Shown here: in pieces, positions 427-63,568 of the stretch
Position numbering within the stretch: position 1 is the stretch's first letter
Layout: each line of letters begins with the position of its first letter
Virus record (IMG/VR): IMGVR_UViG_3300048599_000861
Location: 1 to 63,568 of that record
Reading direction: 5' to 3' (one strand)
DNA length: 63,568 nucleotides
DNA from: a virus
Lineage: Duplodnaviria > Caudoviricetes
The notes under the pieces: generated by a model
Database searches by the model: none
What the model was told of the DNA's origin: nothing
What the model saw: the letters and a program-made list of their open reading frames with translations, nothing else
Program-made: the position numbers and the translations under genes

Positions 427-439
427 CTTTTTTCTGGCG

Positions 440-485
440 TGTACGCAATTGCTCCAGTAGATTTGCGTACAAACCACCTTAACCT
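440..485 (+). promoter_or_regulatory. Operator copy 1 (TGTACGCAA-N14-TTGCGTACA) plus -10-like TAACCT
   Basis: Half-sites at 440-448 and 463-471; TAACCT at 480-485; same motif recurs at 4538, 37711, 51632. Confidence 0.75.
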
Positions 486-4450: not shown

Positions 4451-4537
4451 AGCGGGGCGCGCGCCGGTGGGTGCCATGACGGGCCGGTTTTGGGCGGCTG
4501 GCGAGCGCGCCACTATAGGAAGGGCACACCGCGCACT

Positions 4538-4583
4538 TGTACGCAAAGTCTTGTGCGCCTTTGCGTACAGATTCTTCTATACT
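4538..4583 (+). promoter_or_regulatory. Operator copy 2 plus -10 TATACT (candidate late-operon promoter)
   Basis: TGTACGCAA 4538-4546, N14, TTGCGTACA 4561-4569, TATACT 4578-4583. Confidence 0.75.
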
Positions 4584-37652: not shown

Positions 37653-37710
37653 ATATCTAGTCCATTTCGGCGGTGATTCTTCACAGATTTTTCTGCGTCC
37701 GCAGGCCGCT

Positions 37711-37756
37711 TGTACACAAATATACTGAGCCATTTGCGTACAAAACCCTTTACCAT
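37711..37756 (+). promoter_or_regulatory. Operator copy 3 plus -10 TACCAT (genetic-switch region)
   Basis: TGTACACAA 37711-37719, N14, TTGCGTACA 37734-37742, TACCAT 37751-37756. Confidence 0.75.
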
Positions 37757-44626: not shown

Positions 44627-46281
44627 GCGAATCCTTCCAGAGCAACGAGGGCGCGCTCGAATACCGGATATTCGGGCCTCCTGGCACGGGGAAGACGACC
44701 TTTCTCTCGCGCCAGATCCAGAACGCCGCCGACCGATTCGGCTCGGAGCGCGTCCTGGTGACGAGCTTTACCAGGGCGGCAGCCGCCGAACTTGTGGGCC
44801 GCGAACTCCCGGTCCCGCGCCAGAACATCGGCACGCTCCACGCGCACTGCTACCGGGCGCTCAACAGCCCCGAGATCGCGGAACTCAAGGTCGACGAGTG
44901 GAACAAGGACCGGCCGCAGTACGCCGTCTCGGGCGGCACCAAGGGGGCGCTCGACGAGTCGAACGTAGACCAGTCGTACGAGAAGCCAGGCGACGAACTC
45001 TTCTCCCACATGCACAGCCTCCGCGCCCGCATGATCCCCCAGGAGATGTGGCCTCCCTCGGTCCAGGCGCTGGCAGCGCAGTGGCGTGCGTGGAAGTCCG
45101 ATAACGGGCTGGTCGACTTCACGGACATGCTGGAGATGGCGCTCGCGGATATCCACGTGGCGCCCGGCGATCCACAGGTCCTGATCGCCGACGAGGCGCA
45201 GGACTTCTCGAAGCTTCAACTCTCGATCATCCGCCAGTGGGGGCGCCACACCGAATACACCCTGGTGGCAGGCGACGAGGACCAATTGCTGTACGGTTGG
45301 TGCGGTTGCACGGTCGATGCGTTTTTGAAACCGCCAGTTCCGGATTCTCAAAAGCGCGTCCTGCAGCAGTCGTTCCGGGTACCGCGGGCGGTCCACGCGC
45401 TGGCGCAGCGGTGGATCGAGACGGTAACCCAGCGGGAACCGAAGGAGTACCTTCCGCGCGACTGCGACGGCGAGGTGCGCGCCCAGCATGAAGGCTCCTG
45501 GCGCAACCCGGAGCCGATCCTGGCCGACGCCGAGAAGTACCTCGCCCAGGGCAAGTCGGTCATGTTCCTGGCCGCCTGCTCCTACATGCTCGACCCGCTG
45601 AAGGCGGCGCTCCGGGCGGCCGGGGTGCCGTTCCACAACCCGTACCGCAAGACGCGCGGTGATTGGAACCCGCTGGCGCGCGGCGAGAAGAGCATGGCCG
45701 GGCGCCTGCTGGCGTTCCTGCGCCCGCGCGAGGAGGTCTGGGGAGTGGACACCGGCGAATGGTCGGGCGAGAACCTGCGGCGCTGGGTCGAGATCGTCAA
45801 GTCGGACGGGCTGCTGGCCCACGGCGCGAAGACACGCATCGCCACCTTGTCGCCCGAGGACCGGGTGGAGATCGACCTCCTGGCGCAGCTATTCGAACCG
45901 GAAGCCGCCGAGCAGATGATCACGGTCATCAGCACGGGGACCGTCGAGGACTGCGTGAAGTGGCTGCTCGACCGCGTGCTCGCGGCGAAGAAGAAGGCGA
46001 CCGAGTACCCGGCGACCGTGCTGACGAAGAAGGGCCCGCGCGCGCTGGTCGAGAAGCCCCAGATCATCCTGGGAACCATCCACAGCGTGAAGGGCGGGCA
46101 GGCTGACGTGGTCTACCTGATGCCCGACCTGAGCCGCGCCGGCATGGTCGAGTGGTCGGCCCCCGGCGAGCGCCGCGACGGGGTGGTGCGCCAGTTCTAC
46201 GTCGGCATGACCCGCGCCCGCGAGTCGCTGATCCTGTGCAGGCCGGCGTCGGTGTGGCACGTACCAATGGGGGTTCAGTGA
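44623..46281 (+). CDS. UvrD/Rep superfamily 1 helicase
   Basis: GPPGTGKT; DEAQD; GDEDQ; QSFR; TIHSVKG; FYVGMTRAR. Confidence 0.93.
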   Translation: MSESFQSNEGALEYRIFGPPGTGKTTFLSRQIQNAADRFGSERVLVTSFTRAAAAELVGRELPVPRQNIGTLHAHCYRALNSPEIAELKVDEWNKDRPQYAVSGGTKGALDESNVDQSYEKPGDELFSHMHSLRARMIPQEMWPPSVQALAAQWRAWKSDNGLVDFTDMLEMALADIHVAPGDPQVLIADEAQDFSKLQLSIIRQWGRHTEYTLVAGDEDQLLYGWCGCTVDAFLKPPVPDSQKRVLQQSFRVPRAVHALAQRWIETVTQREPKEYLPRDCDGEVRAQHEGSWRNPEPILADAEKYLAQGKSVMFLAACSYMLDPLKAALRAAGVPFHNPYRKTRGDWNPLARGEKSMAGRLLAFLRPREEVWGVDTGEWSGENLRRWVEIVKSDGLLAHGAKTRIATLSPEDRVEIDLLAQLFEPEAAEQMITVISTGTVEDCVKWLLDRVLAAKKKATEYPATVLTKKGPRALVEKPQIILGTIHSVKGGQADVVYLMPDLSRAGMVEWSAPGERRDGVVRQFYVGMTRARESLILCRPASVWHVPMGVQ

Positions 46282-47126
46282 TCGTAGCCCGCGTGTTCCC
46301 GAGACGAACATCCTGCACGCCAACCGATCATCTCGCATTCGTCGGGTCACCCGGGCTGTTTGCTCCGCGCGGTATCGACGAAGTCCACATCAGTGTGACA
46401 TTTTCCTGGGATCTACCAGAAGCGGAACGCCTGGCAGTGGAGTGGTCCGATGTAGCGCCCGTACGAATCGGGGGGCCGGCCACGGGCATGCGTGGCGAAG
46501 CGTTCACTCCGGGGCAATATTTGAAGCCAGGTTGCACAATCACATCGCGCGGTTGCCCCAACCGCTGTTGGTTCTGTTCCGTTCCTAAGCGCGATGGCAA
46601 TATTCGCGAACTCCCGATCACGGAAGGGTGGAACGTTTTTGATGACAACCTGCTGGCCTGCAGCGAGCGCCACATCCTGTCGGTGGTCGATATGCTGCGC
46701 CAGCAGAAACGCAGACCAGAGTTCACCGGGGGCCTGGAGGCCGCGCGGTTAACACCGGCGCTGGCTGAGATATTGCGGTGGGCGCGGCCGAAGCAACTAT
46801 TCTTTGCTTACGACACGCCAGACGATTGGGAACCGCTAGTGCGCGGCGCCGCGATGTGTTGGCAGGCAGGATTTACTAAGGCATCGCATTGCCTGCGCGC
46901 TTACGTGCTCTGTGGATGGCCCAAAGACACGATGGCCGCTGCCGATGCGCGAATGCGTCAGGTTCTGTCGCTGGGGGTGATGCCCATGGCGATGCTGTGG
47001 CGTGATCAGAGGGGACTGAAAAATCCCGCTTGGCGGCACTTTCAAAACATCTGGGCGCGACCCCAAATCGTGGCGAGCGCGCTCGCAGGTGTGGTTGCAA
47101 CTCAATCCAAGGAGAACAAGTCATGA
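46278..47126 (+). CDS. Radical SAM protein (copy 1)
   Basis: TSRGCPNRCWFC (CxxxCxxC); DDNLLA; GGLEA. Confidence 0.85.
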   Translation: MIVARVFPRRTSCTPTDHLAFVGSPGLFAPRGIDEVHISVTFSWDLPEAERLAVEWSDVAPVRIGGPATGMRGEAFTPGQYLKPGCTITSRGCPNRCWFCSVPKRDGNIRELPITEGWNVFDDNLLACSERHILSVVDMLRQQKRRPEFTGGLEAARLTPALAEILRWARPKQLFFAYDTPDDWEPLVRGAAMCWQAGFTKASHCLRAYVLCGWPKDTMAAADARMRQVLSLGVMPMAMLWRDQRGLKNPAWRHFQNIWARPQIVASALAGVVATQSKENKS

Positions 47127-51350: not shown

Positions 51351-51673
51351 TGCCGTATTCACTCGACGACCTGCGAAAGGCCAGGCAACCGAAGCCAGCC
51401 GAAAACGATCTGCTCGCGCGAATTCCGCCAGATGCGCCGCACGATACCGACGAGGCCCTCGGGTGCTGGAACGGCGAGCGATTCGTTTCCTGGAAGGAGT
51501 GGATCCTCTCGCGCCCAATCGAGGCATTTATCGATAGAAATAGGGTTGAGAATTCTTGCGAGTCGGCCCACCGCGAAGGCGGGTCAGCTACCAAATCCCA
51601 CCGCAAGCACGAGATGCAAAATTCTGGCATTTGTACGCAAAAATCTCTGGCTATTTGCGTACAAATGCACTAG
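51350..51673 (+). CDS. Hypothetical protein
   Basis: TAATG coupling, GGAGG RBS; 3' end runs through operator 4. Confidence 0.5.
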   Translation: MPYSLDDLRKARQPKPAENDLLARIPPDAPHDTDEALGCWNGERFVSWKEWILSRPIEAFIDRNRVENSCESAHREGGSATKSHRKHEMQNSGICTQKSLAICVQMH

Positions 51674-51676
51674 CGT
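51632..51676 (+). promoter_or_regulatory. Operator copy 4 plus -10-like TAGCGT
   Basis: TGTACGCAA 51632-51640, N14, TTGCGTACA 51655-51663, TAGCGT 51671-51676. Confidence 0.75.
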
Positions 51677-51871
51677 AGACAGTACGAAAGGACATGAGAA
51701 TCGGATGCGGAAATCGAAACGCAGAAGCGACGGGCCCGCTACCACGGACGCTTCACTCGTGTGCCTGCGCGCTAACTAACTAACTAGCCCAACTCAACAA
51801 GGAGACAAGCCAAGCATGTCGTGCCATGCCAGAACTCGAAGTGTGTCCGAAGGGAGCGCCCGGTAGAAACC

Positions 51872-52807
51872 ATGGGCAAGGACACCAAAATCTCCTGGTG
51901 CGACTCCACCGTAAACCCGGTCGTTGGGTGTGACGGATGCGAGTTGCACCGCGCGGGCGACGAACACAGCATCTGCTACGCCGCCTCCCTGGTCGGCCGC
52001 TACTCAGGACACCGCGGTTGGCCAGCCTCATTCGATAGACCAGAATTCTTCGCTGGCCGCATTGAGCAAGCCTGCCGCTGGCCCAATCTCACCGGACAGG
52101 ACCGCCCGGAGAAACCGTGGCTGAACGGCTACCCTCGGACGATCTTTCTCGGCGACCTCGCCGACATCTTCAGCGAGTCCCTCTTGCCCGACTGGCTCGC
52201 GCCCTTCCTCCCAATGATGCAGCGGGCACCGCATATCTGGATCATCTGCACCAAGCGGCCCGCTGCGGCGCGGCGTTTCTTCGAAACCTGGGGATGCCCG
52301 CCGAACTTCTGGGTACTCACCACGGTGACGAGCGCCGCCACCCTCAACCGCGTCGAGGAACTCCTGCGGATCACCAACGCTCCAGTCCTCGGCGTCAGCT
52401 ACGAGCCAGCACTTGGGCCGATCGCGCACGCCATTGCGCCGTACCTCGCCTTCGACGGATGCGGTCGCTATCTCGACTGGCTGATCTGCGGCGGTGCTTC
52501 CGGTCCAAAAGCGCCTCCGATGCCTTCGCATTGGGCCTTCGATCTCCGCGACCAGTGCGAGGCCACGCACACGCCCTTCTTCTTCAAGCAGTATTCCGAG
52601 TGGATCGATTGCGGCTGCGAGGCATTCGGAAAAGCCCACTACGGGACGCCGCGCCACATCCGCTCGGACGGGACCTTCTGGCCGGTTGGCGAGGTTCCGG
52701 GCGACGAGGACGCCGACGTACTGACGGTTGTCCCTGCAGGGGTGAAGACGGCAGGCGCGAACCTCGGCGGGCGTGAGTGGCGCCAGATGCCGGAGGTGCG
52801 CCGATGA
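51872..52807 (+). CDS. DUF5131 (phage Gp37/Gp68) family protein
   Basis: TKISWCDSTVNPVVGC..CYA; TKRP; SYEPALG; DWLICGGASG; PFFFKQ; GREWRQMP. Confidence 0.9.
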   Translation: MGKDTKISWCDSTVNPVVGCDGCELHRAGDEHSICYAASLVGRYSGHRGWPASFDRPEFFAGRIEQACRWPNLTGQDRPEKPWLNGYPRTIFLGDLADIFSESLLPDWLAPFLPMMQRAPHIWIICTKRPAAARRFFETWGCPPNFWVLTTVTSAATLNRVEELLRITNAPVLGVSYEPALGPIAHAIAPYLAFDGCGRYLDWLICGGASGPKAPPMPSHWAFDLRDQCEATHTPFFFKQYSEWIDCGCEAFGKAHYGTPRHIRSDGTFWPVGEVPGDEDADVLTVVPAGVKTAGANLGGREWRQMPEVRR

Positions 52808-53007
52808 ATGCCAGCACGGTTCTTCGGGAAGCCTGCACCGAGATGCGGCAATGCCACGAGCGGATCGACAGCCTTCTCGCGGCAAATCCAGAAGCGGTCG
52901 ATCAGGGCCTCGCGGCGGAATGGCGCAAGCAGGCGGCCGAATCTACACGGGCACTTGAGGCCGCGACAGCGCGCGTCCTGGGCCGGATTGCGGGGCAGGA
53001 ATGCTGA
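52804..53007 (+). CDS. Hypothetical protein
   Basis: ATGA coupling, GGAGG RBS. Confidence 0.55.
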   Translation: MNASTVLREACTEMRQCHERIDSLLAANPEAVDQGLAAEWRKQAAESTRALEAATARVLGRIAGQEC

Positions 53008-53303
53008 GCATGGACCTCACAGACCAGAGCATCCAGACTCGCTTCGAAGCATTCCACGCCAACCACCCGGAAGTCTACAGGGCCATCGTGAAACTGGCCT
53101 TCGATCTCAAGACGCGGGGATTCCGGCGCTACGGTCTGAAGTCGCTCTTCGAACGCGTGCGCTGGCACTTCCAGATCGATCTCGACCTCGGCGAGGAGTG
53201 GAAGCTCAACAACAACTACACCAGCCGGTACGCCCGGAAGCTGATGGCCGAGTTCCCGGAACTGGAGGGCTTCTTCGAAGTCCGGGAGTTGAAGGCCGCA
53301 TGA
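53001..53303 (+). CDS. Conserved phage hypothetical protein
   Basis: FEAFHANHPEVY..ERVRW..KLNNNYTSRYAR..GFFEVR. Confidence 0.75.
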   Translation: MLSMDLTDQSIQTRFEAFHANHPEVYRAIVKLAFDLKTRGFRRYGLKSLFERVRWHFQIDLDLGEEWKLNNNYTSRYARKLMAEFPELEGFFEVRELKAA

Positions 53304-53869
53304 CATCCCAGGACCTCGTAATCGAGAACCTCCCGCTCGCCGCCAAGATCGCGAACGGGATCTCGCGGCGGCTGCCGCGCCACATTGATCCGCAGGACCT
53401 GCGCCAGGAGGCCAGCCTGGGCCTTCTACGCGCTGCGGCCCGGTACGACGGAGCCGGGAACGTTCAGTTCGGCGCGTACGCGCGCCGGCGCATTTCGGGG
53501 GCAGTCCTCGACAGCCCGCGCGAGGACGATCACCTTTCGCGCCGAACCAGGCGGCACATGAAAGCAGAGGGTGCCGACGACTATTCCTTCCCGCTGCAGA
53601 TGACCGCGCCCGACGCGCTTCCGGGAAACGCGCCCGCGCCAGACCAGTGCGCCGCGGAGGCCGAACGGCGCCGCCTGCTCGACGCCGGGATAGCTACACT
53701 GCCCGCGCGCCTGCAGAGTGTGGTGCGCGCCTACTACGACGGCGAGCAGACGATGCGCGAGATCAGTCACACGCTCGGCGTCAACCAGGGCCGGGTATCC
53801 CAGTTACACGCTCGCGCTATTGGGATGCTGCGAACGCACTTCCAGGTCCAGGGGGTAAGCGAACTGTGA
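53300..53869 (+). CDS. Sigma-70 family (FliA/WhiG-like) RNA polymerase sigma factor
   Basis: Region 2 DLRQEASLGLLRAAARYD..FGAYARRRISGAVLD; region 4 TMREISHTLGVNQGRVSQLHARAI. Confidence 0.85.
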   Translation: MTSQDLVIENLPLAAKIANGISRRLPRHIDPQDLRQEASLGLLRAAARYDGAGNVQFGAYARRRISGAVLDSPREDDHLSRRTRRHMKAEGADDYSFPLQMTAPDALPGNAPAPDQCAAEAERRRLLDAGIATLPARLQSVVRAYYDGEQTMREISHTLGVNQGRVSQLHARAIGMLRTHFQVQGVSEL

Positions 53870-54282
53870 TGCCGAACCTGGATTACCACAGCATCACCGC
53901 ACTCGTATGCCCGCGCTGCGGGGTGGAAAGCAAGGGCCCGCACCAGAATTGGGCCGCATGCGTTGACGCCCTCCGCAGCGTGATCGGGGACATGCAGATC
54001 AAGATCGACGGGCTGGAAGAGAAGCTTGCGCGGTCCAAGTCGAACGCGTCCGAACCAGCGAATCCGGCGCGCCGCGAACCGAAGGACGCCAGGTTCCACC
54101 AGATCGTGGTCCTCGACGGCGAGGTCCTGCGGTTGGACGTGGCGGCAGTTCGCCTGGGCCTCACGCCGATGGCGCTGTATTTCCGGATTCGCAAGCGCAT
54201 CGGAAAGTTCACCGACCAGGTAGACATCAGGGCCATCGGCGCGGACGTCAGCCAGCGCCCCTGGCTTACGGCGCGGTCATGA
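53869..54282 (+). CDS. Hypothetical protein with Zn knuckle and C-terminal HTH-like segment
   Basis: CPRC...H....C; AAVRLGLTPMALYFRI. Confidence 0.6.
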   Translation: MPNLDYHSITALVCPRCGVESKGPHQNWAACVDALRSVIGDMQIKIDGLEEKLARSKSNASEPANPARREPKDARFHQIVVLDGEVLRLDVAAVRLGLTPMALYFRIRKRIGKFTDQVDIRAIGADVSQRPWLTARS

Positions 54283-54601
54283 GGAAAGAAGAATGCCCCC
54301 GCTGCGGGCTGGTCGTCGCAGGCTCACACCGAACGGCGGAAGACTGCTTGGCGCACCTCGCCCCACGGTACGCCCTCGCCGCACGCTGGACGAGTTCGAA
54401 TACCGCGTGTTCCAGATGCACTTCCTGGGCGGCGCCGACTGGCGGGCATGCACGCGCGCGCTTGGCCTGGACCGTGGAAACTTCTTCCACGCCGTATACC
54501 GCATCGAACAGAAGCTCGGGCGCGTGTTTTTCGAGATCCAACCGTACGCCCTGTACCCGCTCCGGGAGTACTTCGGAGCGGTGACCGAGAGGACCAACTA
54601 A
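54279..54601 (+). pseudogene. Frameshifted gene; C-terminal part resembles a sigma-region-4-like conserved acidobacterial protein
   Basis: Frame 54279 MRKEECPRC..APRYALA switches near 54378-54382 to RTLDEFEYRVFQMHFLGGADW..LDRGNFFHAVYRIEQKLGRVF..PYALYP. Confidence 0.6.
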
Positions 54602-55303
54602 GTGAGAGTCGTTTACTTCGACCTGGAAACGGGTGGGGTGCTGGACCACCACCCCATCATTCAGATCGCCGCCGTCGCGATCGACGAGAGCACCTGGCGC
54701 GAACTCGGGGCCATCGAAATGAAGCTTCAGTTCGATCCGGCGACCGCCGACCCCGAGGCTCTGGCGATGAACCACTACAACGCGGCTGTGTGGCGCGCGG
54801 AGGCCGTCCCGGTAATCCAGGCGATCTCGCGCTTCGCACGATTCATCGAACCGTACAAGGTTCTCCATCTGATCAGCAAGCGCACGGGGCGCCCGTACAG
54901 CGTGGCGCAACTGGCTGGCCACAACGGGGCGTCGTTCGACGGGCCGCGGATTCAGCGACTGTACAAGGACGCCGGGGCATTCCTGCCTGCCGACCCGCGT
55001 GTGCTTGACACGATGCAGCGGGCGATGTGGTGGTTCCAGGAGCGCGGCATCCGGCCCGAGTCCTTCAAGCTCGAAGCGCTCTGTAACTACTTCGGAATTC
55101 CCATCGGGGAAGGCGAGACGCACGACGCGCTCGCCGACGTACGGCTAACGATCCAACTGGCGCGGCGGTTGCGCGACCGCGACGCCGAACCGGCCGCTGT
55201 GCCGAGTGCGGAGGCCATCGCGAGCGGGTTGAGCGTTCCGGTGGCGACCGTGAGAAGCGACATTCGCGCCACAGACTACAGCACGCAAGGAGGCAGGAAA
55301 TGA
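54602..55303 (+). CDS. DEDDh 3'-5' exonuclease (DnaQ-like)
   Basis: FDLETGG; GHNGASFD; HDALAD. Confidence 0.9.
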   Translation: MRVVYFDLETGGVLDHHPIIQIAAVAIDESTWRELGAIEMKLQFDPATADPEALAMNHYNAAVWRAEAVPVIQAISRFARFIEPYKVLHLISKRTGRPYSVAQLAGHNGASFDGPRIQRLYKDAGAFLPADPRVLDTMQRAMWWFQERGIRPESFKLEALCNYFGIPIGEGETHDALADVRLTIQLARRLRDRDAEPAAVPSAEAIASGLSVPVATVRSDIRATDYSTQGGRK

Positions 55304-55542
55304 AGATCGAGTTGGGCCAGAAGGTCAAGGATAAGATCACCGGATTCACCGGCGTGGTGACCGGGAGAACCGAGTACATCACCGGCTGCGAGCAACTGCT
55401 CGTGCAACCGCCCACGAAGAACGACGGCGCGTTCACGGAGCCGCGCTGGTTCGATGTGGATCGACTGGACGTGATCGAGCAGGAGAAGGTCTCGCTCACG
55501 GTCAAGAAGGCAGGCTTCGACTCCCCCGCGCCGGCGCGGTAG
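55300..55542 (+). CDS. Conserved phage hypothetical protein
   Basis: LGQKVKDKITGFTGVVTGRTEYITGC..WFD..RL. Confidence 0.8.
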   Translation: MKIELGQKVKDKITGFTGVVTGRTEYITGCEQLLVQPPTKNDGAFTEPRWFDVDRLDVIEQEKVSLTVKKAGFDSPAPAR

Positions 55543-55550
55543 CGGGACAC

Positions 55551-55855
55551 GGGATTGCCGATGATCGTGTGCGGACTCATCGCGGACGCGGGTTCGATTC
55601 CCGCCACCTCCACCAACCTGGCGGCTCTGACTCGGTTTGCGTGTTGGCAACCGGGTTATCCGCCTCCATGCGGGGGTGTACAGGTTTCGACGGGATGCAG
55701 CGAGCGCACGGGAGGCATTGGGCAGGCGACCGTCCTTACAGGCGCAAACCATAAAGGCCAACAACACTGTGGCCCTGCCGATGGCTGCCTAGCAGCGCTG
55801 AAGCGGCGCACGCCGGGGGACCCGCAAGGGTGCGCGGCAACAGAACCCCGGCCCT
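55551..55855 (+). ncRNA. ssrA: Circularly permuted (two-piece) tmRNA
   Basis: Acceptor piece ends GCGGG-TTCGATT-CCCGC-CACCTCC-ACCA (55588-55615); hairpin intervening sequence 55616-55671; coding piece starts GGGGGTG-TACAGGTTTCGAC (55672); G3:U70 pair; P2 pairings between the pieces; tag GCC..GCT GCC TAG 55757-55792 = ANNTVALPMAA. Outer ends approximate. Confidence 0.93.
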
Positions 55856-55868
55856 ACAAGGAGAATCG

Positions 55869-56057
55869 ATGAACGCTACGAAACGCAAGGCGCCCGCGAA
55901 GGCGCAGAACAGCAAGCAGGGAACGGTGAAGTTCACCGTCGTCAGCCCCTTGGCGATCCTGGCCATGCTCGGCGAAGCATGGGCTTCCGGATACGTTGCC
56001 GCCCTGGCGGAATCGAAACCGCGGCGCAGCAAGAAGGCGGTGGCATCGAAGTGCTGA
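55869..56057 (+). CDS. Small hypothetical protein
   Basis: AAGGAG RBS immediately after the tmRNA. Confidence 0.55.
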   Translation: MNATKRKAPAKAQNSKQGTVKFTVVSPLAILAMLGEAWASGYVAALAESKPRRSKKAVASKC

Positions 56058-56851
56058 CCCACAGCGGCGTCCACGTAACCCGCGAGTTCGGCGCACCGAC
56101 GATCCGCGACATCGCCGTGCAGAGCATGCGCCTGGTGCGCTGGTCGGGCGGTGGTGAGGTCTTCTGGCCCATCGGCATGCACTGCCTGCTCGTCGCCGAC
56201 CTGATGCCGAAGAGCCTCGAAAATCCTATCAGGCCCATGCAGGAGATTCCGACCGATCACTGGCTCGATGTCCACGCGCTGCTCCACGACGCCGCCGAGG
56301 TCTCCGTGGCCGACGTTCCCAGGCCAATGAAGACCGGCGAGGCGCGCGCCGTCGAGGACAGCGTGCAGTCGCGCATCTTCGCCTCGCTCGGAGTCCCGGA
56401 GCCGACCGAAGCGATCAAGGCGGCCGTCAAGCGAGCCGACTTCCGGGCGGCGCTCGCCGAAGGCGCCTGCGGTTGCGCGGGCCGCGGCTACCAGCAGACC
56501 CAGACCGGGTTTCACAACGACCCCGAGGCCGAGCAGATCCTGCGCGCGTACCTCGCCCGGTACAACGTCGCCGACGCGATTAACGCGGACGGGCAGTGGG
56601 CGCTCTGGTACGAGGCCCGCCTGCGGCAGGCCATGCGCGCCGCCCAGCGCGCCGTGTCCTACGCTCCCGAAGCCGAGGTGCAGACGCCAGCGCCGGCGGC
56701 GCCGACCTGGAGAACGGTTATCGATTCTCCGCAGCAGGACGTCCTCTGCGCCATCCAGGCGCTCTACCGCTCCCAGGAGCACAGGCCGTCGTACGAGGCC
56801 GTTCGGGACGTCGTGATGCGCGCCTTCCAGGGCCGCGAGGGTAAGCGGTAA
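56051..56851 (+). CDS. HD-domain 5'-deoxynucleotidase-like protein (YfbR/YfdR-like)
   Basis: DIA...R..RWSG..HCLLV; ALLHDAAE...DVPRPMK; VKRAD. Confidence 0.8.
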   Translation: MLTHSGVHVTREFGAPTIRDIAVQSMRLVRWSGGGEVFWPIGMHCLLVADLMPKSLENPIRPMQEIPTDHWLDVHALLHDAAEVSVADVPRPMKTGEARAVEDSVQSRIFASLGVPEPTEAIKAAVKRADFRAALAEGACGCAGRGYQQTQTGFHNDPEAEQILRAYLARYNVADAINADGQWALWYEARLRQAMRAAQRAVSYAPEAEVQTPAPAAPTWRTVIDSPQQDVLCAIQALYRSQEHRPSYEAVRDVVMRAFQGREGKR

Positions 56852-57186
56852 TGCTGGGCATCTACAACGCGACCTGGTGGTTCGAACATCGCCCGAGGCT
56901 GCGTTACTGGCAAGCGTTCCTGCTGGCCTTGGTCTGGACTCTGGTGTGGGGCTGCGCGCGCTGGCCGCGGCTCCGCATCTATTTCCGCTGCGCCACCTAC
57001 GCAGGCTGGGTTGCGTGGCGCAACGCCTTTGCCTGGGGCCGGCGCGAGTGCCCGGAGCCTGTCGTCTGCGAAGAGTGTGGCTGGGCAGGCCCGCGGCGCT
57101 GGGTCTTCCACGCCTACCAGGATGACGGAAGCGGAGAGGACGTCGAGCCAGTCGACGAGTGCCCCAATTGCGGAAGGGAGATTTGA
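56851..57186 (+). CDS. Hypothetical Zn-ribbon protein
   Basis: TAATG coupling; CEECGW...CPNCG. Confidence 0.55.
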   Translation: MLGIYNATWWFEHRPRLRYWQAFLLALVWTLVWGCARWPRLRIYFRCATYAGWVAWRNAFAWGRRECPEPVVCEECGWAGPRRWVFHAYQDDGSGEDVEPVDECPNCGREI

Positions 57187-57683
57187 TGGACACCCAATAC
57201 GAATCGACAATGCAGGACCTCGACAAACGGGCGGCGCTGGTGAAACTCGCTCAGTGCTTCCATCAGAACGGTCTCAGCCAGGTTGGCATGGTCATATCCG
57301 AGATCGTCTCCGGAACGGCGCAACAGGTCCTGGCCTGCTTACGAGCGCTGCACCAGTGGCGCTACACCGAGGCGGCCGAACCCGCGCCCGAGATCGCCGA
57401 GTTACGGCGCCTGCGCGAGGGCCTCGATGCGCTCAAGAAGGAACTAACCGACGATCCCACATTCGGCAGCATCATTGAACTGGTTTTCTACGGCCCGCTG
57501 CGCGAGGCCGAGGCCGAGAATCGCAGGCTTCGCGCAGTGCTCCACGACGTGCTCGGCATCTTTCGGCCGCACCCGCATCAGGAGGGGCACTACCTCATCC
57601 TGACCGTCGATATCGAGCGGATCAAAGGCCAGATCGCGCGGGCGCTGGGCGTGGTCGAGTCAACCGAGGCCCAGAATGGCTGA
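57186..57683 (+). CDS. Hypothetical protein
   Basis: TGATG coupling, GGGAG RBS. Confidence 0.6.
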   Translation: MDTQYESTMQDLDKRAALVKLAQCFHQNGLSQVGMVISEIVSGTAQQVLACLRALHQWRYTEAAEPAPEIAELRRLREGLDALKKELTDDPTFGSIIELVFYGPLREAEAENRRLRAVLHDVLGIFRPHPHQEGHYLILTVDIERIKGQIARALGVVESTEAQNG

Positions 57684-57942
57684 CCGAATCGCTGAGAGTA
57701 TAGACGCCGTCCTGGCCTCAGTCGGTCCCGACGATGGTCCCAACTACGACAACTTCGCGCCGCACGTGAACGCCAGCGCCCAGCTACAGAAGCTCGTGTT
57801 CGCGCACGTGAGCAGGTTCTTCGCCAGCGAACTACCGATTCCCGACCGGATTCAACTGGCGGTCCTGCATTCCTTCTGGCTGGGCTTCGAGTCGGGCAAG
57901 GCGGTGGAGCAGGGCGAACGGATGGAGGAGATATTCGGATGA
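57676..57942 (+). CDS. Hypothetical protein
   Basis: Overlap-coupled within the operon. Confidence 0.55.
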   Translation: MADRIAESIDAVLASVGPDDGPNYDNFAPHVNASAQLQKLVFAHVSRFFASELPIPDRIQLAVLHSFWLGFESGKAVEQGERMEEIFG

Positions 57943-58196
57943 TCAGCTATCCACTTCAGTACCAAGAGTTGCTGCGTAAGAGCGTGGACGAGGTGACTAA
58001 CGCGCGGGTGAATCTCGCTTGCGCGGAACAAGACGCAGCGAAGGCCAAGCGAGCATCAATCCAAGCCGACAATCGCGTCGAGGAACTCAAGACAGAGTTG
58101 GAGAAAGTGAAATCCATCCTCGATGTTCGCATCAAACGCTCACCCTACGAGGCGGTGGAGCAATTCAAAACCGATACCGGGCGGTACCCAATATGA
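57939..58196 (+). CDS. Hypothetical coiled-coil protein
   Basis: ATGA coupling, GGAGG RBS. Confidence 0.55.
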   Translation: MISYPLQYQELLRKSVDEVTNARVNLACAEQDAAKAKRASIQADNRVEELKTELEKVKSILDVRIKRSPYEAVEQFKTDTGRYPI

Positions 58197-58489
58197 TCGT
58201 CGTCAAAGTCGAGATGTGGCCCGGTGGCGACGAGTCGCGCGCGAGGGAATTCGCGCGGGCTACGATCACGAACCAGGTCAAGACGACGGTGGCAAGCAGA
58301 GGCCAGCTTGGCGACTACGCCGTGTGCTTGTCGGGAGGAATCTGGGGTGGCCCCGACTTCATGACGCGGACTTGGAGGACGGGCGCCGTTACCGGGTTTG
58401 ACCGTGTTCGGCGTGGGGTCTGGGACCTGCTCTTCTTGGCGCTTCGCAACACGGTGGGGTACCGAAATCAAAGGAGCAACCGGGCGTGA
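58193..58489 (+). CDS. Conserved phage hypothetical protein
   Basis: MIVVKVEMWPGG..GDY..GAVTGFDR...VWDL. Confidence 0.7.
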   Translation: MIVVKVEMWPGGDESRAREFARATITNQVKTTVASRGQLGDYAVCLSGGIWGGPDFMTRTWRTGAVTGFDRVRRGVWDLLFLALRNTVGYRNQRSNRA

Positions 58490-60206: not shown

Positions 60207-60547
60207 AGGCGTTTCTGATCTGTTCAGTGAGGGGAGCGACCGCGGAAACTCTCCGCGCCCAGGAGCAGTACGTCGCGGAGCTCGAGGCGCGGGGCTACGA
60301 GGTTCACTATCCCCCCAGGGACACGAACCAGGCCGCGGACGCAGCGGAGATTTGCTCCCAGAATTTCTGGGCAATCAAGAACGCGGATGAGGTTCACGTT
60401 TTCTACAGCCCGAAAAGCCAGGGCACGCATTTCGATCTGGGAATGGCGTTCGCGCTCGCGAAGAAGATCGTTGTTGCGCGAAACGTCCCCTACGGTCCCG
60501 GTAAGAGTTACGCCCGGATGCTGGACGAGTGGAGGACATGGCGATAG
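60203..60547 (+). CDS. Nucleoside 2-deoxyribosyltransferase-like protein
   Basis: YPPRD; AIKNADEV; SQGTHFDLGMAFAL.K. Confidence 0.75.
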   Translation: MKAFLICSVRGATAETLRAQEQYVAELEARGYEVHYPPRDTNQAADAAEICSQNFWAIKNADEVHVFYSPKSQGTHFDLGMAFALAKKIVVARNVPYGPGKSYARMLDEWRTWR

Positions 60548-61428
60548 CTCGCGTGTTCCCGCGCCGTACCCGCGCAACCCCAGACGATAAGCTGACATTC
60601 GTTGGAGGACCTGGGCTGTTCCCACCTGAAGTTGAGGCGGTTCATATAAGCGTCACGTTCAGTTGGGATCTGCCCACCGCGCACCGCCTCGCGGCCGAGT
60701 GGGAGCGAATCGCCCCAGTGAGGATCGGCGGGCCGGCGACGGGTGAACCTGGCGGCGACTTCGTTCCTGGCTTGTATCTCAAACAGGGATACGTGATCAC
60801 GTCGCGCGGCTGCCCCAACCGCTGCTGGTTTTGTTCGGTCTGGAAGCGCGAAGGGCAGGCTATCCGAGAGTTGCCAATCACCGAGGGCTGGAACGTTCTG
60901 GACGATAATCTGCTCGCGTGCTCCCCGAAGCATATCTGCGAAGTAATGGAGATGCTACGGAGACAGAACCGGCAACCGGAGTTCACTGGTGGAATTGAAG
61001 CGGCCCGACTCGATCAGTGGAGCGCCGAGGCCATCCGGTCGGTGCGCCCGAAGCAGCTATTCTTCGCATTCGATACGCCCGATGATTGGGAGCCTCTGCT
61101 CCGCGCGGCAGACCTGTGCTGGCGCGCGGGTTTCACGAAGACCTCCCACGCGATCCGCGCGTATGTGCTGTGCGGCTGGCCGAAGGACACGATGGCGCAG
61201 GCAGAGCAGAGAATGCGCCAAGTGCTCTCCCTAGGAATAATGCCGATGGCGATGCTGTGGCGCGACCTTGGGGGTAAGAAGAACCCAGGATGGGCACATT
61301 TTCAGAAGCGGTGGGCGCGGCCCCACATCGTCGCTACCGAGCTTGCTGGAAGGGCGGCGCACGATCAAGTATCCCAACTTGAGCTTGATGAAGTTCGCAG
61401 CAGCACGGTACTGTCACCCGTGAGGTAA
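60538..61428 (+). CDS. Radical SAM protein (copy 2, paralogue of 46278)
   Basis: TSRGCPNRCWFC; long peptide blocks identical to copy 1. Confidence 0.85.
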   Translation: MAIARVFPRRTRATPDDKLTFVGGPGLFPPEVEAVHISVTFSWDLPTAHRLAAEWERIAPVRIGGPATGEPGGDFVPGLYLKQGYVITSRGCPNRCWFCSVWKREGQAIRELPITEGWNVLDDNLLACSPKHICEVMEMLRRQNRQPEFTGGIEAARLDQWSAEAIRSVRPKQLFFAFDTPDDWEPLLRAADLCWRAGFTKTSHAIRAYVLCGWPKDTMAQAEQRMRQVLSLGIMPMAMLWRDLGGKKNPGWAHFQKRWARPHIVATELAGRAAHDQVSQLELDEVRSSTVLSPVR

Positions 61429-61430
61429 CA

Positions 61431-62621
61431 ATGCCGCGCGAAAAGCACCAGAACGGGTGGGTCAAGGTCGCCGGAAGGCGAGAGAAGAAGTGGATCGGGC
61501 ACTGGCGGCCATACCGCGAGGACGGAACCCGCGGGCACTCCACGGTCGTGCTGGGCCTGAAGGCGAAGATGGCCAAGTGGGAAGCCGAGGATAAGCTCCG
61601 CGCCCACATCGCCGAGGAGACCCACAAGGCCGAGAAGCCCGAAGGCGATCCCACCTTCAAATGGTTCTGGGAGCATCGATTCCTGCCGACCCGGACGTGG
61701 TGTCCGAAAACCGAATCCATCATCAAGAAGATCTTCGAACTGCACGTGCTGCCAGTCGTCGGCGACCGCAAGCTGCGCGAGCTCGAAAAATTCGAGATCG
61801 ACGTGCTCGTCAAGAAGCTCGCCGAGTGCTGGTCCGGGAGCTTGGTGCAGAAGGTCCGCATCTACACCAAGGCGGCGCTCGAGGACGCGATCGACCAGGG
61901 CCTGCTCGACCGCAATCCGGCGCGTAAGGTGGTAAGGCCGTCCACGCGCGCGGCCTGCAGACGGTTCCTCTCGCTCGACGAGATCGCGCGCCTGCTGGAC
62001 GCCATGGAAGGCCGCGACCGTCTGGTGGCCCGAATCTGCATCGTGCTCGGCCTGCGTCCGGGCGAGGTATTCGCGACCAAGTGGGACGACTTCGATGAAG
62101 GGACCGGGCGCCTTCGCGTCGACGAGTCCGCTGTGGACTGCGAAATCAAGGACACCAAGACCCCCGGTTCCCGCGCCTGGGTGTGGCTGCCGAAGTCGAT
62201 TACCGAGGAGCTTTCGAAGTGGCGCACGGTAAGCGCCTCGACGCTGATCTTTCCGTCGCGCAGCACGCGCCCCATCAGCACGCGCAACTTCCTGCGGCGC
62301 CATATCTGGCCGGCGGCCGTGCGGGCCGGGATCATGCAGAAGAAACCGAAGGACTGGCCGAAAGGCAAGCAGTGGGTCGATCCCGCGACGTCGGTCAACT
62401 TCCGCGCCTTCCGCAGGACCTGCGCGACGTGGTTCCACGAGAGCGCCGGTACGAAGAACACCCAGGCGCTCCTGCGCCACACCACGCCGATCACCACGCT
62501 GGGCGTGTACGTTCAGGAGTTACCAGAGAGCGTCCGGACGGCGGTCGAGGCCCTCGACCAGAAGCTTTGCGGCGGTGGCGCGGCGCTCGCCGCAGCGGAA
62601 CCAAAGGGTCCGGTCCAGTGA
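61431..62621 (+). CDS. int: Tyrosine recombinase / phage integrase
   Basis: GLRPGE (R), DTKT (K), FRAFRRT (HxxR variant), LRH, GVY; adjacent to tRNA. Confidence 0.93.
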   Translation: MPREKHQNGWVKVAGRREKKWIGHWRPYREDGTRGHSTVVLGLKAKMAKWEAEDKLRAHIAEETHKAEKPEGDPTFKWFWEHRFLPTRTWCPKTESIIKKIFELHVLPVVGDRKLRELEKFEIDVLVKKLAECWSGSLVQKVRIYTKAALEDAIDQGLLDRNPARKVVRPSTRAACRRFLSLDEIARLLDAMEGRDRLVARICIVLGLRPGEVFATKWDDFDEGTGRLRVDESAVDCEIKDTKTPGSRAWVWLPKSITEELSKWRTVSASTLIFPSRSTRPISTRNFLRRHIWPAAVRAGIMQKKPKDWPKGKQWVDPATSVNFRAFRRTCATWFHESAGTKNTQALLRHTTPITTLGVYVQELPESVRTAVEALDQKLCGGGAALAAAEPKGPVQ

Positions 62622-62635
62622 AAACCCCGAACGTT

Positions 62636-62657
62636 CTGGTACACAACTGGTACACAA
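62636..62657 (+). repeat. Tandem direct repeat CTGGTACACAA x2 (integrase arm-type site candidate)
   Basis: 62636-62646 and 62647-62657, between int stop and tRNA 3' end; IHF-like TAAGTCTTTCGTTT at ~62679. Confidence 0.65.
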
Positions 62658-62695
62658 ATGCGGTTCGGGGAATTTCGGTAAGTCTTTCGTTTTCA

Positions 62696-62772
62696 TGGTC
62701 GGGGCGGGGCGATTTGAACGCCCGACCCCCTGCGCCCAAGGCAGGTGCGCTACCAGGCTGCGCTACGCCCCG
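62696..62772 (-). tRNA. tRNA-Pro(TGG); prophage attachment site
   Basis: CGGGGCGTAGCGCAGCCTGGTAGCGCACCTGCCTTGGGCGCAGGGGGTCGGGCGTTCAAATCGCCCCGCCCCGACCA; cloverleaf with anticodon TGG and encoded CCA. Confidence 0.97.
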
Positions 62773-63568
62773 ACATATTGATGCTCTCCTTAATACTAGA
62801 ACACTTTCCCGGCGGCGACACGAAATTGGAGATCAGCGAGGCGAGCTCGACCGGCGTCTCCCGCATCGGGTAGTGGCCGGCGCCGGTGAGGACCGCGAGC
62901 GACGAGTTGGGACACCAGGCCAGAATCGTCTCCTGCATGCGCACGGCTGAACAGCCGGGGTCGAGCGCTCCGCAAATCACCAGCACCGGAACCGCCGCGC
63001 CCTTCACCTCGACCGCAAAATCCGTCTGCGTCCAGGCGGCCATGTATTCTTCGAGGGGCGCCCCCGCCGTCGCAGCCAGACTCAACTCCAACAACTCGTC
63101 CACCCAACCACAATCGCGCGCCCTCCCCGTGTTGACGTCGATTAGCTCCCGTCGCGCGGCGGGAGCGACGATGGCGCGGTGGAGCAACTCCCGGCGAGCT
63201 TCGTCGATGCCGGCGCCCGACGCCGGGACCGGCGCGATCAAAATCGCCGACGTCAATCGGCGCGGAGCGTCCACCATCAGCCGCTGCGCCGCCATGCCCG
63301 CCATCGAGTGGCCGACAATGTGAAACGTCGCCCAGCCGAGGCGATCCGCCAGAGCCAGCATGTCGACGGCGATGGCGGCGATGTTGTAGGGGCCGGGATC
63401 GGCGCGACGCTCTCCATACCCGCGGCAGTCGAGGTAGGCGCAGGTGAAGCGCGCCGGATCGAGGCAGTCGAAGAAGGGCTCGAAGAGTCGGTGGTCGCCG
63501 AGCCAGCCGTGTACGACGATGAGCCGGTCGGGGCCGTGGCCGATCACGCGCGCTGGGACGAGGGACAT
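62750..63568 (-). CDS. Alpha/beta fold hydrolase (host gene)
   Basis: VHGW; GHSMAG nucleophile elbow; catalytic Asp (GALDP) and His (AGHY). Confidence 0.88.
   Translation of the reverse strand: MSLVPARVIGHGPDRLIVVHGWLGDHRLFEPFFDCLDPARFTCAYLDCRGYGERRADPGPYNIAAIAVDMLALADRLGWATFHIVGHSMAGMAAQRLMVDAPRRLTSAILIAPVPASGAGIDEARRELLHRAIVAPAARRELIDVNTGRARDCGWVDELLELSLAATAGAPLEEYMAAWTQTDFAVEVKGAAVPVLVICGALDPGCSAVRMQETILAWCPNSSLAVLTGAGHYPMRETPVELASLISNFVSPPGKCSSIKESINMSGRSAAW

What the first reader, a model, noticed from the sequence alone, without database searches (positions are those of the whole stretch)
55551..55855. Prophage-encoded circularly permuted (two-piece) tmRNA inside the early operon
Seen: the tRNA-like 3' end (T-arm GCGGG/CCCGC, acceptor strand CACCTCC-ACCA, ending at 55615) lies upstream of the tmRNA 5' end (GGGGGTG TACAGGTTTCGAC at 55672). 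A 56-nt hairpin spacer separates them. The two acceptor strands pair 7/7 including the G3:U70 alanine determinant. P2 forms across the pieces (CGGGATG 55691/CATCGCG 55578; GCGCACG 55704/CGTGTGC 55566; GGCA/TGCC). Downstream come a pk1-like knot, the UA resume signal at -5/-4, a tag ORF, a hairpin over the stop codon, and a 3' pseudoknot (GCGCAC/GTGCGC, GCCGGGG/CCCCGGC). Established: permuted tmRNAs are classically known from alphaproteobacteria, some cyanobacteria and some betaproteobacteria; the textbook phage tmRNAs are one-piece. Inference: a temperate phage of a probable acidobacterium carries its own two-piece ribosome-rescue RNA. It could counter host defences that cleave mRNA or tmRNA, or redirect proteolysis.
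Basis: partly seen in the sequence, partly recalled or inferred. Interest (0 to 1): 0.92.

Follow-up and report, generated by a model that had tools for sequence, protein, structure and literature searches.

The report
Two-piece tmRNA gene in acidobacterial prophage
A prophage that probably lives in a soil acidobacterium carries its own complete, circularly permuted ribosome-rescue RNA (tmRNA) gene, of a different build and with a different tag from the one-piece tmRNA found in every genome checked from its likely host group; phage-borne two-piece tmRNAs are already in print.

Summary
ARAGORN calls a permuted tmRNA at 55523-55883 with tag ANNTVALPMAA. Rfam tmRNA_permuted scores 109.7 bits against a cut-off of 47.

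The gene lies inside a tRNA-Pro-integrated siphovirus-like prophage, between phage genes. This prophage group carries three more distinct relatives. One sits at the same place in a related phage contig. One sits in a prophage of a genome of the order of a MAG titled Bryobacterales; that genome also has a standard tmRNA. One is a cut metagenome contig. Across the four, 96.5% of 172 cells pair and 6 pairs show compensatory changes.

The host is probably a Terriglobia acidobacterium. All 5 such genomes tested have a one-piece tmRNA with tags ending FAYAA.

The novelty claim is overstated. Phage two-piece tmRNAs are published (PMC9004378). My pattern scan found 38 permuted tmRNAs in IMG/VR contigs, and 19 of the 20 tested are beta-type.

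Verdict: real, probably functional, a new member of a known kind. The twist is a host phylum that uses one-piece tmRNA. The function in infection is inferred, not shown.

The parts
55300..55542 (+). Upstream phage ORF (80 aa, phrog_16275, unknown function). Its stop codon lies 11 nt before the Rfam start of the tmRNA gene.
55553..55615 (+). Acceptor piece. It holds the 5' strands of three P2 helices (55554-55559, 55566-55572, 55578-55584), the T-arm (55588-55604), the 3' acceptor strand (55605-55611) and an encoded ACCA (55612-55615).
55616..55671 (+). Intervening sequence of 56 nt, predicted to be removed on maturation. It forms a stable hairpin whose basal helix (GGCGG/CCGCC) shows a compensatory change in L022 (GCCGG/CCGGC). 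TCCAT(G/A)C just before G1 is kept in 3 of 4 members; L022 reads GCCATGC.
55672..55852 (+). Coding piece. It holds the 5' acceptor strand (55672-55678), the 3' strands of P2 (55691-55697, 55704-55710, 55714-55719), the PK1-like knot (55720-55745), the tag frame, the stop hairpin and the 3' pseudoknot. The true 3' end is unknown.
55757..55792 (+). Tag reading frame GCC...TAG, encoding ANNTVALPMAA, with U at -5 and A at -4 before the resume codon.
55784..55796 (+). Hairpin over the stop codon. A hairpin at this place is present in 4 of 4 relatives.
55806..55852 (+). 3' H-type pseudoknot (S1 55806-55811 with 55830-55835; S2 55812-55818 with 55846-55852). The same topology with different letters is found in 4 of 4 relatives.
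55869..56057 (+). Next ORF (62 aa), with AAGGAG at 55858-55863, starting 17 nt after the pseudoknot. It is not conserved among the relatives. It shows that the tmRNA gene has no room for a terminator of its own.
54602..55303 (+). DnaQ-like 3'-5' exonuclease gene (phrog_192, PF00929), an upstream phage neighbour.
55979..56851 (+). 290-aa phage gene (phrog_318, named a dNMP phosphatase). It lies downstream of the tmRNA in both the window and L022 (about 70% aa identity).
61431..62621 (+). Tyrosine integrase, 79% identical to that of L022.
62696..62772 (-). tRNA-Pro(TGG). It is the attachment site at the prophage's right end, with its 3' end facing the integrase. It is the marker used to place the host.

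Best explanation
This is a working two-piece tmRNA (ssrA) gene that belongs to a small lineage of temperate phages of Terriglobia (Acidobacteriota).

Inferred mechanism:
- It is transcribed as part of the phage's replication and nucleotide-metabolism operon.
- The intervening hairpin brings the two acceptor strands together.
- RNase P cuts before G1 (55672), and the 3' end is trimmed to the encoded CCA (55615).
- The result is an acceptor RNA of about 63-70 nt base-paired to a coding RNA of about 185 nt.
- Host AlaRS charges it through G3:U70, and host SmpB and EF-Tu deliver it to stalled ribosomes. The phage encodes no SmpB.
- Translation resumes on GCC and adds ANNTVALPMAA.

It would thus add rescue capacity during phage growth. 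It marks rescued peptides with a phage-specific tag ending ALP(M/L)AA instead of the host-group ending FAYAA.

What is shown: the gene's anatomy, its place in the phage, its conservation with compensatory changes, and the one-piece tmRNA of the likely host group. What is inferred: transcription, processing, charging and any benefit to the phage.
For: - Detection: ARAGORN and Rfam RF04321 at 109.7 bits.
- Phage context: terminase, portal, head-protease, tape measure, helicases, primase, sigma factor, exonuclease and integrase next to tRNA-Pro. The record is an IMG/VR provirus, 89% complete.
- Four distinct relatives: the window; L022 (= L187); the G034 prophage (L172, identical to L188); and L186, cut at its 5' end.
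- L022 is syntenic with the window: DUF5131 70% aa, sigma factor 48%, tmRNA, the 290-aa gene about 70%, integrase 79%.
- The G034 copy lies among a tail-like protein gene, an endolysin-like gene and exonuclease, Erf and DnaN-like genes. G034 also has a standard tmRNA at 163.6 bits.
- Structure across the four: 96.5% of 172 cells pair, against 37-56% when partners are slid. Six pairs change on both sides: T-arm 3, acceptor 1, P2 1, 3' knot 1. G3:U70 is kept in 4 of 4.
- The stop hairpin and H-type knot are found in 4 of 4.
- In the last six tag codons I count four synonymous differences and one Met/Leu change (alignment). This points to selection on the peptide.
- Host group: 5 of 5 genomes sharing the tRNA-Pro have a standard tmRNA and 0 of 5 a permuted one over the cut-off. 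ARAGORN read their tags as ANQQFAYAA, ANTQFAYAA or ANNQQFAYAA.
Against: - No RNA evidence: no holder on record as RNA was listed, and nothing was seen of ends or processing.
- Only four sequences support the covariation, and they are related, so the shuffle control overstates significance.
- The second stem of PK1 never varies and its first stem varies on one side only, so PK1 is untested by covariation.
- No promoter or terminator was found by the sigma-70 consensus scan. That scan does not cover acidobacterial or phage-sigma promoters.
- The host is placed only by a tRNA gene shared across a class and by kinship with a prophage in G034. The flanking hydrolase has at best 52% identity in 301 genomes of the order, and no tRNA is called in the 3 best-match loci.
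- The lineage is rare: 1 of 151 genomes in the order sample.
- The tag ending MAA has no tested protease partner.
Confidence: 0.82

Rival explanations
1. It is a passenger: a tmRNA gene picked up from a bacterium by a phage, carried without function and decaying.
For: It is rare: 1 of 151 genomes in the order sample. Only 2 hits, L022 and L188, came up in IMG/VR for the clade pattern; the window's own record may be left out of such scans. A related phage contig with a homologous exonuclease (L003) has no tmRNA. No expression data exist.
Against: Four diverged copies in at least three different gene contexts keep every helix. They show 6 compensatory pairs, an invariant G3:U70, an open tag frame, mostly synonymous changes in the tag's last six codons, and a 3' knot rebuilt with different letters. 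A decaying copy would lose these.
Confidence: 0.07
2. It acts as a decoy or inhibitor of the host's trans-translation, titrating SmpB or AlaRS, rather than as a rescuer. The TLD-only RNA of mycobacteriophage DS6A is thought able to act this way.
For: The phage encodes no SmpB, so it must compete for the host's. PMC4131195 (passages) reports that a TLD-only molecule strongly inhibits tmRNA.
Against: A decoy needs no tag frame, resume signal, stop hairpin or pseudoknots, yet all are kept in 4 of 4 members. The tag's C-terminal ALP(M/L)AA is kept through synonymous changes.
Confidence: 0.06
3. It is the host's own ssrA, or an attachment-site remnant of it, placed inside the prophage by misassembly or by imprecise excision.
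For: tmRNA genes are frequent integration sites, and fragments of ssrA occur in prophages (PMC4383910, search listing and start of abstract; PMC9004378, passages).
Against: The gene is complete and permuted, whereas all 5 genomes checked from the likely host group have standard tmRNA genes with different tags. It lies about 6-7 kb from the integrase and tRNA-Pro end, between phage genes on one strand. The same layout recurs in L022. G034 holds both kinds.
Confidence: 0.02

Closest known systems
Two-piece ssrA of OM43 phage Melnitz and other phage two-piece tmRNAs (PMC9004378; abstract and passages seen)
   Same: A phage-encoded, complete, circularly permuted tmRNA placed among early genes, with no phage SmpB found here. 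That paper reports that the phage's tmRNA type need not match its host's lineage.
   Different: Melnitz is a 141.5-kb T4-like phage in which the authors found no integrase. Its ssrA is of alphaproteobacterial type and sits behind a glutamine riboswitch. Here the phage is a temperate siphovirus-like prophage of about 63 kb or more, and the tmRNA is nearest the beta type. No other Rfam family reached its cut-off anywhere in the window, and nothing credible matched around the gene in the E-value scans of 55300-56100 and 55480-55920. The likely host phylum uses one-piece tmRNA.
Betaproteobacterial two-piece tmRNA, Rfam RF01850 (the lineage of Sharkady and Williams 2004, known to me only from the reference list of PMC9004378 and from recall)
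   Same: It is the best-matching clan member. It shares the sequence of the tRNA-like domain, GGUUUCGAC, the P2 layout and the CAGGCGAC loop of PK1. A profile built from 18 beta-type viral copies aligns the first 90-94 nt of the coding piece at 17-24 bits.
   Different: It scores 65.5-68 bits, under the cut-off of 84. The 5' extension of the model (positions 1-51) and its 3' part do not fit. The tag ends ALP(M/L)AA, whereas most of the viral copies end in ...ALAA, and the others in endings such as RLAA, RLVA or AIAA.
Caulobacter two-piece tmRNA (Keiler, Shapiro and Williams 2000; recalled, and cited in PMC9004378)
   Same: The general mechanism I assume: one precursor, removal of an intervening segment, and two RNAs held together by the acceptor stem and P2.
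   Different: That one is chromosomal, the only ssrA of its cell, and alpha-type. It is experimentally shown; this one is not.
One-piece tmRNAs of cluster C mycobacteriophages (Bxz1 and others) and Bacillus phage G; the TLD-only RNA of DS6A (PMC4131195, passages)
   Same: Phage-borne tmRNA genes.
   Different: Those are of standard, unpermuted form, or lack a tag frame (DS6A).
Standard tmRNA of Terriglobia/Bryobacterales (loci L164-L168, L185)
   Same: Universal tRNA-like domain motifs and the AN... start of the tag.
   Different: One piece, 350-357 nt, tags ending FAYAA, and a different P2 and PK1 sequence. A profile of 14 such genes matches only about the first 25 nt of the phage coding piece in 3 of 4 members.

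Membership tests
tmRNA, permuted (two-piece) form, Rfam RF04321 | Covariance-model score at or above the gathering cut-off | tested here: met
   109.7 bits against 47, model positions 1-213 of 213. Relatives score 104.5 (G034) and 83.8 (L186, cut at its 5' end).
tmRNA, permuted (two-piece) form, Rfam RF04321 | tRNA-like domain: 7-bp acceptor stem with G3:U70, T-arm with a GGUUCGAUUCC-type loop, encoded CCA | tested here: met
   Sequence. All acceptor and T-arm cells pair in 4 of 4 members, G:U at position 3 is kept in 4 of 4, and there are 4 compensatory pairs.
tmRNA, permuted (two-piece) form, Rfam RF04321 | Gene order permuted: the T-arm and 3' acceptor strand lie upstream of the 5' acceptor strand and tag frame, separated by an intervening sequence | tested here: met
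   The 3' end is at 55615 and the 5' end at 55672, with 56 nt between. There is no tRNA-like 3' end after the coding part. RF00023 matches only 55544-55615 at 36.6 bits.
tmRNA, permuted (two-piece) form, Rfam RF04321 | Tag reading frame that starts at an Ala resume codon and ends in a hydrophobic ...AA and a stop | tested here: met
   ANNTVALPMAA. Relatives are ANQPMALPMAA (read from the alignment; ARAGORN started it earlier), ANSYENALPLAA and ANSNEYALPMAA.
tmRNA, permuted (two-piece) form, Rfam RF04321 | Pseudoknot PK1 just upstream of the resume codon | tested here: inconclusive
   An H-type knot can be drawn at 55720-55745 and all its cells pair. The 5 pairs of S2 never vary, and S1 varies on one side only, so covariation cannot speak.
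tmRNA, permuted (two-piece) form, Rfam RF04321 | Processing into two RNAs, alanylation, SmpB binding, trans-translation | not testable with these tools
   No holder on record as RNA was listed. This needs bench work.
Betaproteobacteria-type two-piece tmRNA, Rfam RF01850 | Score at or above the gathering cut-off of 84 bits | tested here: not met
   65.5 and 68.0 bits. 19 of 20 other viral permuted tmRNAs pass at 89-163 bits.
Standard one-piece tmRNA, Rfam RF00023 | Full-length match over the cut-off of 47 bits | tested here: not met
   36.6 bits on 55544-55615 only.
ssrA attachment-site fragment carried by a phage that integrates into ssrA | A partial 3' piece of the host's ssrA beside the integrase at the prophage end | tested here: not met
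   The gene is complete and lies 6-7 kb from the integrase. The attachment site is tRNA-Pro.

The most novel reading that the evidence does not exclude
A phage-restricted tmRNA lineage has carried the two-piece build into Acidobacteriota, a phylum in whose sampled genomes I found only one-piece chromosomal tmRNA genes. It works there as an orthogonal tagging system. Its tag ending ALP(M/L)AA, unlike the host-group ending FAYAA, sends rescued peptides to a different fate during infection or lysogeny, such as another protease or adaptor, or slower decay. A lysogen would then run two tmRNAs with two different degrons side by side. A bolder version, which I hold less likely, is that the permutation arose independently in phages rather than being inherited from the beta-type lineage.
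Probability: 0.2. Interest if true: 0.65.

Novelty: new member of a known kind. Interest (0 to 1): 0.4.

Why it matters
Why phages carry tmRNA genes is unsettled. The proposals in print are keeping the hijacked translation machinery running, or tagging host proteins for recycling (PMC9004378; PMC12656738).

This case offers a clean natural contrast. The phage tmRNA differs from the tmRNA of its likely host group in build (two pieces against one) and in tag ending (ALP(M/L)AA against FAYAA). In one genome (G034) both kinds sit together. The products of the two systems could therefore be told apart by mass spectrometry, and the two RNAs by size.

It also shows that permuted tmRNA calls in non-proteobacterial, non-cyanobacterial genomes can be prophage cargo. 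In addition, RF04321 gives false calls over its cut-off where a tRNA directly precedes a standard tmRNA, which is a practical point for annotation.

It does not change what is known about trans-translation itself.

Tried and rejected
- Own promoter or terminator: the sigma-70 and intrinsic-terminator consensus scan of 51400-58200 gave 0 promoter-like sites and 5 terminator-like sites, none flanking the gene on the + strand (shuffles give 5.5). The scan does not cover phage-sigma or acidobacterial promoters.
- Cultured relatives: the terminase has at most 36.4% identity in 796 INPHARED records. The tmRNA DNA matches only 34 nt of T-arm and acceptor in 2 phages.
- First clade pattern: it was too strict (A fixed at one place) and gave 0 hits in genome contigs. 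The relaxed pattern later showed it would have missed G034.
- Left attachment site: no repeat of 12 nt or more of 62600-62800 occurs elsewhere in the window, so the left end is not in the record.
- Empty attachment site: the flanking hydrolase has at best 52% identity in 301 genomes of the order, and no tRNA is called in the 3 best-match loci. The host genus stays unknown.
- Conserved protein partner downstream: the small ORFs after the tmRNA show no evident likeness among the four members on reading their translations.
- Origin: pairwise identities do not separate beta-type viral copies from acidobacterial standard genes. The profile comparison leans to beta-type but is weak. I had no bacterial alpha, beta or cyanobacterial reference genomes within reach, so no tree was built.
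- Sequencing runs: no RNA holder was listed, and all three runs hold small shares. When laid, most cover is the universal T-arm and acceptor. One contig in a soil run (55659-55910, 11 differences), two in a rhizosphere run and one in a wastewater run (55597-55730, 6 differences, across the intervening sequence) look like relatives. They are contigs, so they say nothing on ends or expression.
PMC516066 is not held.
- Supplements were not opened. Table S1 of PMC9004378 (the phages with two-piece tmRNA) and Supplementary Table S2 of PMC11915505 (phylum breakdown of permuted forms) may already list members of this lineage or acidobacterial instances, which bears on the novelty claim.
- 'Not in print' rests on these searches. 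None returned a paper whose title or abstract start concerns tmRNA in phages of Acidobacteria; I did not open the 8 papers listed.
Full report
**What is there**

The stretch 55553-55852 on the + strand is a circularly permuted tmRNA gene. ARAGORN reports a permuted tmRNA at 55523-55883 with tag ANNTVALPMAA. The Rfam model tmRNA_permuted (RF04321) matches 55553-55792 over all 213 model positions at 109.7 bits, against a cut-off of 47.

- T-arm at 55588-55604.
- 3' acceptor strand CACCTCC at 55605-55611, then ACCA ending at 55615.
- A 56-nt intervening sequence.
- 5' acceptor strand GGGGGTG at 55672-55678. The two strands pair 7 of 7, with G3:U70.
- P2 helices formed between the two pieces.
- A tag frame at 55757-55792, preceded by U at -5 and A at -4.
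- A hairpin over the stop codon.
- An H-type pseudoknot at 55806-55852.

The intervening sequence folds into a hairpin of -26.2 kcal/mol (z -3.5; 0 of 200 shuffles as good).

Two small corrections apply. The helix CATCGCG/CGGGATG has a G.G mismatch, which is kept in the three relatives that have letters there. The PK1-like knot shows no compensatory change (its second stem never varies, its first varies on one side only), so covariation is silent on it.

It is truly permuted. The standard model RF00023 matches only the T-arm and acceptor piece, at 36.6 bits under its cut-off. No tRNA is called there, and nothing tRNA-like follows the coding part. Instead AAGGAG and the ATG of the next ORF follow 6-17 nt after the pseudoknot.

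**It belongs to a prophage**

The window is an IMG/VR provirus record rated 89% complete. Almost all likely genes lie on the + strand. They include:
- large terminase, portal, head-protease fusion and tape measure;
- two helicases and a primase/polymerase;
- two DNA methyltransferases;
- DUF5131 and a sigma factor;
- a DnaQ-like exonuclease (54602-55303) and a small phrog_16275 gene that ends at 55542;
- the tmRNA;
- a 290-aa gene (phrog_318), a DUF4326 gene, and a tyrosine integrase (61431-62621);
- tRNA-Pro(TGG) at 62696-62772 on the - strand, with its 3' end facing the integrase, and then an alpha/beta hydrolase gene.

So the tmRNA lies 6-7 kb inside the prophage, among replication and nucleotide-metabolism genes. 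No SmpB gene is in the record. A sigma-70 and terminator consensus scan finds nothing that would make it a separate transcription unit, which fits co-transcription but does not prove it.

**Relatives**

A general pattern for permuted tmRNA found 38 IMG/VR contigs, and ARAGORN calls a permuted tmRNA in all 38. One of them, L022, has a tag ending ALPMAA.

L022 is a related phage fragment with the same gene order. tblastx gives DUF5131 70%, sigma factor 48%, the tmRNA, the 290-aa gene about 70%, a DUF4326-region match 80%, and integrase 79%.

A clade-specific pattern then found three more loci:
- L187, identical to L022 over the tmRNA region compared.
- L188, a 59.8-kb IMG/VR contig.
- L186, a 1.2-kb metagenome contig that starts inside the T-arm.

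A survey with RF04321 of 151 genomes from the order of G002 (a MAG titled Bryobacterales) gave one match over the cut-off. It is G034:C5:90371-90614, at 104.5 bits, with tag ANSYENALPLAA, and is identical to L188 over the tmRNA region compared.

In G034 the gene lies between a tail-like protein gene and an endolysin-like gene on one side and exonuclease, Erf, DnaN-like and DUF5131 genes on the other, so it is again in a prophage. G034 also has a standard tmRNA on another contig, at 163.6 bits.

That makes four distinct sequences in at least three gene contexts.

**Evidence of selection**

On the four-sequence alignment I counted pairs for the acceptor stem, T-arm, three P2 helices, PK1 and part of the 3' knot.
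- 96.5% of 172 cells form standard pairs, against 36.8-55.8% with partners slid by 1-3 columns.
- Six pairs change on both sides: three in the T-arm, one in the acceptor stem, one in P2 and one in the 3' knot.
- G3:U70 is kept in 4 of 4.

With four related sequences the shuffle control is generous, so I rest on the slid controls and the compensatory pairs.

An unguided search for the best H-type knot after the stop hairpin returns the same topology in all four, with different letters:
- S1: GCGCAC/GTGCGC, CGCGC/GCGCG, CCGAGT/GCTCGG, CCGCGC/GCGCGG.
- S2: 7-8 pairs.
- Between 0 and 7 of 200 shuffles scored as high.

The last six tag codons encode ALP(M/L)AA in all four. By my count on the alignment, they differ by four synonymous changes and one Met/Leu change. 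A dead or decoy copy would not keep all this.

**The host and its own tmRNA**

Of the 80 listed, 78 are titled as Acidobacteriota lineages, mostly Bryobacterales, Bryobacteraceae, Solibacteraceae and Terriglobia. Many match the whole tRNA exactly, and some match at about 90-95% over a stretch that also covers the roughly 34 nt on its 5' side.

The terminase has up to 50% identity to prophages in that order (24 of 301 genomes at E 1e-60 or better). It has at most 36.4% identity in cultured phages. The flanking hydrolase gives no close match (52% at best), so the genus is unknown.

Five genomes with the tRNA-Pro were tested:
- 5 of 5 have a standard tmRNA, at 152-170 bits.
- 0 of 5 has a permuted one over the cut-off.
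- ARAGORN read their tags as ANQQFAYAA, ANTQFAYAA or ANNQQFAYAA.

In a sample of 151 genomes of the phylum, 4 passed the RF04321 cut-off at 51.6-58 bits. All four are a tRNA-Asp directly followed by a standard tmRNA, so they are false calls. In 151 genomes of G034's family only G034 itself matched.

So in this phylum I found the two-piece form only in phage context.

**Origin**

Among Rfam's tmRNA clan the best match is the betaproteobacterial type, but at 65.5-68 bits it is under its cut-off of 84. Nineteen of 20 other viral permuted tmRNAs that I tested pass that model at 89-163 bits. My pattern favoured that type, so this is not an unbiased census.

A profile of 18 such viral copies aligns the first 90-94 nt of the coding piece of all four members, at 17-24 bits. 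A profile of 14 acidobacterial standard genes matches mostly the first 25 universal bases, at 6-14 bits. Plain pairwise identity does not discriminate.

I read this as a divergent offshoot of the beta-type permuted lineage that circulates in phages, rather than a fresh permutation of the host's gene. The evidence is weak, and I had no bacterial reference sets for a tree.

**How it most likely works**

The anatomy, the phage context, the conservation and the contrast with the host group are shown. The steps below are inferred from the Caulobacter two-piece system (recalled; cited in PMC9004378) and from general tmRNA biology.
- It is transcribed within the phage operon.
- The intervening hairpin folds and the acceptor stem closes.
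- RNase P cuts before G 55672, and the 3' end is trimmed to CCA at 55615.
- The two RNAs stay paired through the acceptor stem and P2.
- AlaRS charges the RNA through G3:U70, and host SmpB and EF-Tu deliver it.
- Translation resumes at GCC 55757 and adds ANNTVALPMAA.

The benefit may be extra rescue capacity while phage nucleases and heavy translation produce non-stop messages. It may also be a different fate for tagged peptides, because the tag ending differs from the host's. Neither is tested.

**Known or new**

Phage-encoded two-piece tmRNAs are in print. The Melnitz paper (PMC9004378; abstract and passages) describes one in an OM43 myophage. It reports that of 133 unique tmRNA structures in 402 phage genomes, 53 were called two-piece by ARAGORN, 50 of them from marine or aquatic phages.

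The 2025 tmRNA database paper lists 79 unique bacteriophage sequences and 11,946 permuted ones (PMC11915505, passages). Its phylum breakdown is in a supplement that I could not see.

My searches returned no paper whose title or abstract start concerns tmRNA in phages of Acidobacteria; I did not open the papers listed.

I therefore file it as a new member of a known kind. It has three notable points:
- It is carried by temperate soil-type phages, not marine lytic ones.
- The likely host phylum has one-piece tmRNA.
- The tag ending is distinct.

**Verdict**

Interest is moderate at 0.4. It is a tidy natural system for asking what phage tmRNAs do, not a new kind of thing.

Noticed in passing
window 439-473, 4537-4571, 37710-37744, 51631-51665: Four copies of a 35-nt palindromic motif (TTGTACGCAAA, 13 nt, TTTGCGTACAA), 63-100% like the reference copy. 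By the ORF list they fall in gaps between the larger + strand ORFs. The last copy lies about 155 nt before the DUF5131 gene, at the head of the gene run that holds the tmRNA. They may be operator, promoter or processing sites tied to the phage's own sigma factor.
   Followed up: no
window 46285-47075 and 60545-61335: A stretch of about 0.8 kb is present twice at about 70% identity, 14,260 nt apart. Each copy overlaps an ORF with a weak radical-SAM match, at 46152-47126 and 60529-61428.
   Followed up: no
L189-L192 (G391, G367, G355, G328): RF04321 passes its cut-off (51.6-58 bits against 47) where a tRNA-Asp gene directly precedes a standard tmRNA gene. These are false 'permuted' calls in 4 of 151 Acidobacteriota genomes, which is a caution for automatic annotation.
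   Followed up: yes
L086, L082, L042, L060, L062, L106, L112: Besides the full tRNA-Pro, these acidobacterial loci hold a second copy of only its 3' 41-52 nt (87-100% alike), 0.8-5 kb away. This looks like attachment-site repeats of other elements integrated at the same tRNA-Pro, and it suggests a core that runs from the anticodon loop to the 3' end.
   Followed up: partly
window 52808-53869: The prophage encodes its own sigma-70-family factor, with regions 2 and 4. It is conserved at 48% in L022 and lies 1.7 kb upstream of the tmRNA.
   Followed up: no
window 62750-62772: The hydrolase ORF on the - strand runs 23 nt into the 5' part of the tRNA-Pro gene. Either its true stop is earlier or the overlap is real.
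   Followed up: no
L003 (IMGVR_UViG_3300045965_000132): This is the only IMG/VR relative found with the exonuclease as query (52% identity). ARAGORN calls no tmRNA within 4 kb on either side of the exonuclease homologue, so the tmRNA is not tied to that gene.
   Followed up: partly
G003:C62:15246-15595 and G003:C175:1-352: One acidobacterial MAG shows two full standard tmRNA matches (169.8 and 155.7 bits), both touching an end of the fetched locus. ARAGORN called only the first. It may be a duplicated gene, strain mixing or a binning artefact.
   Followed up: no
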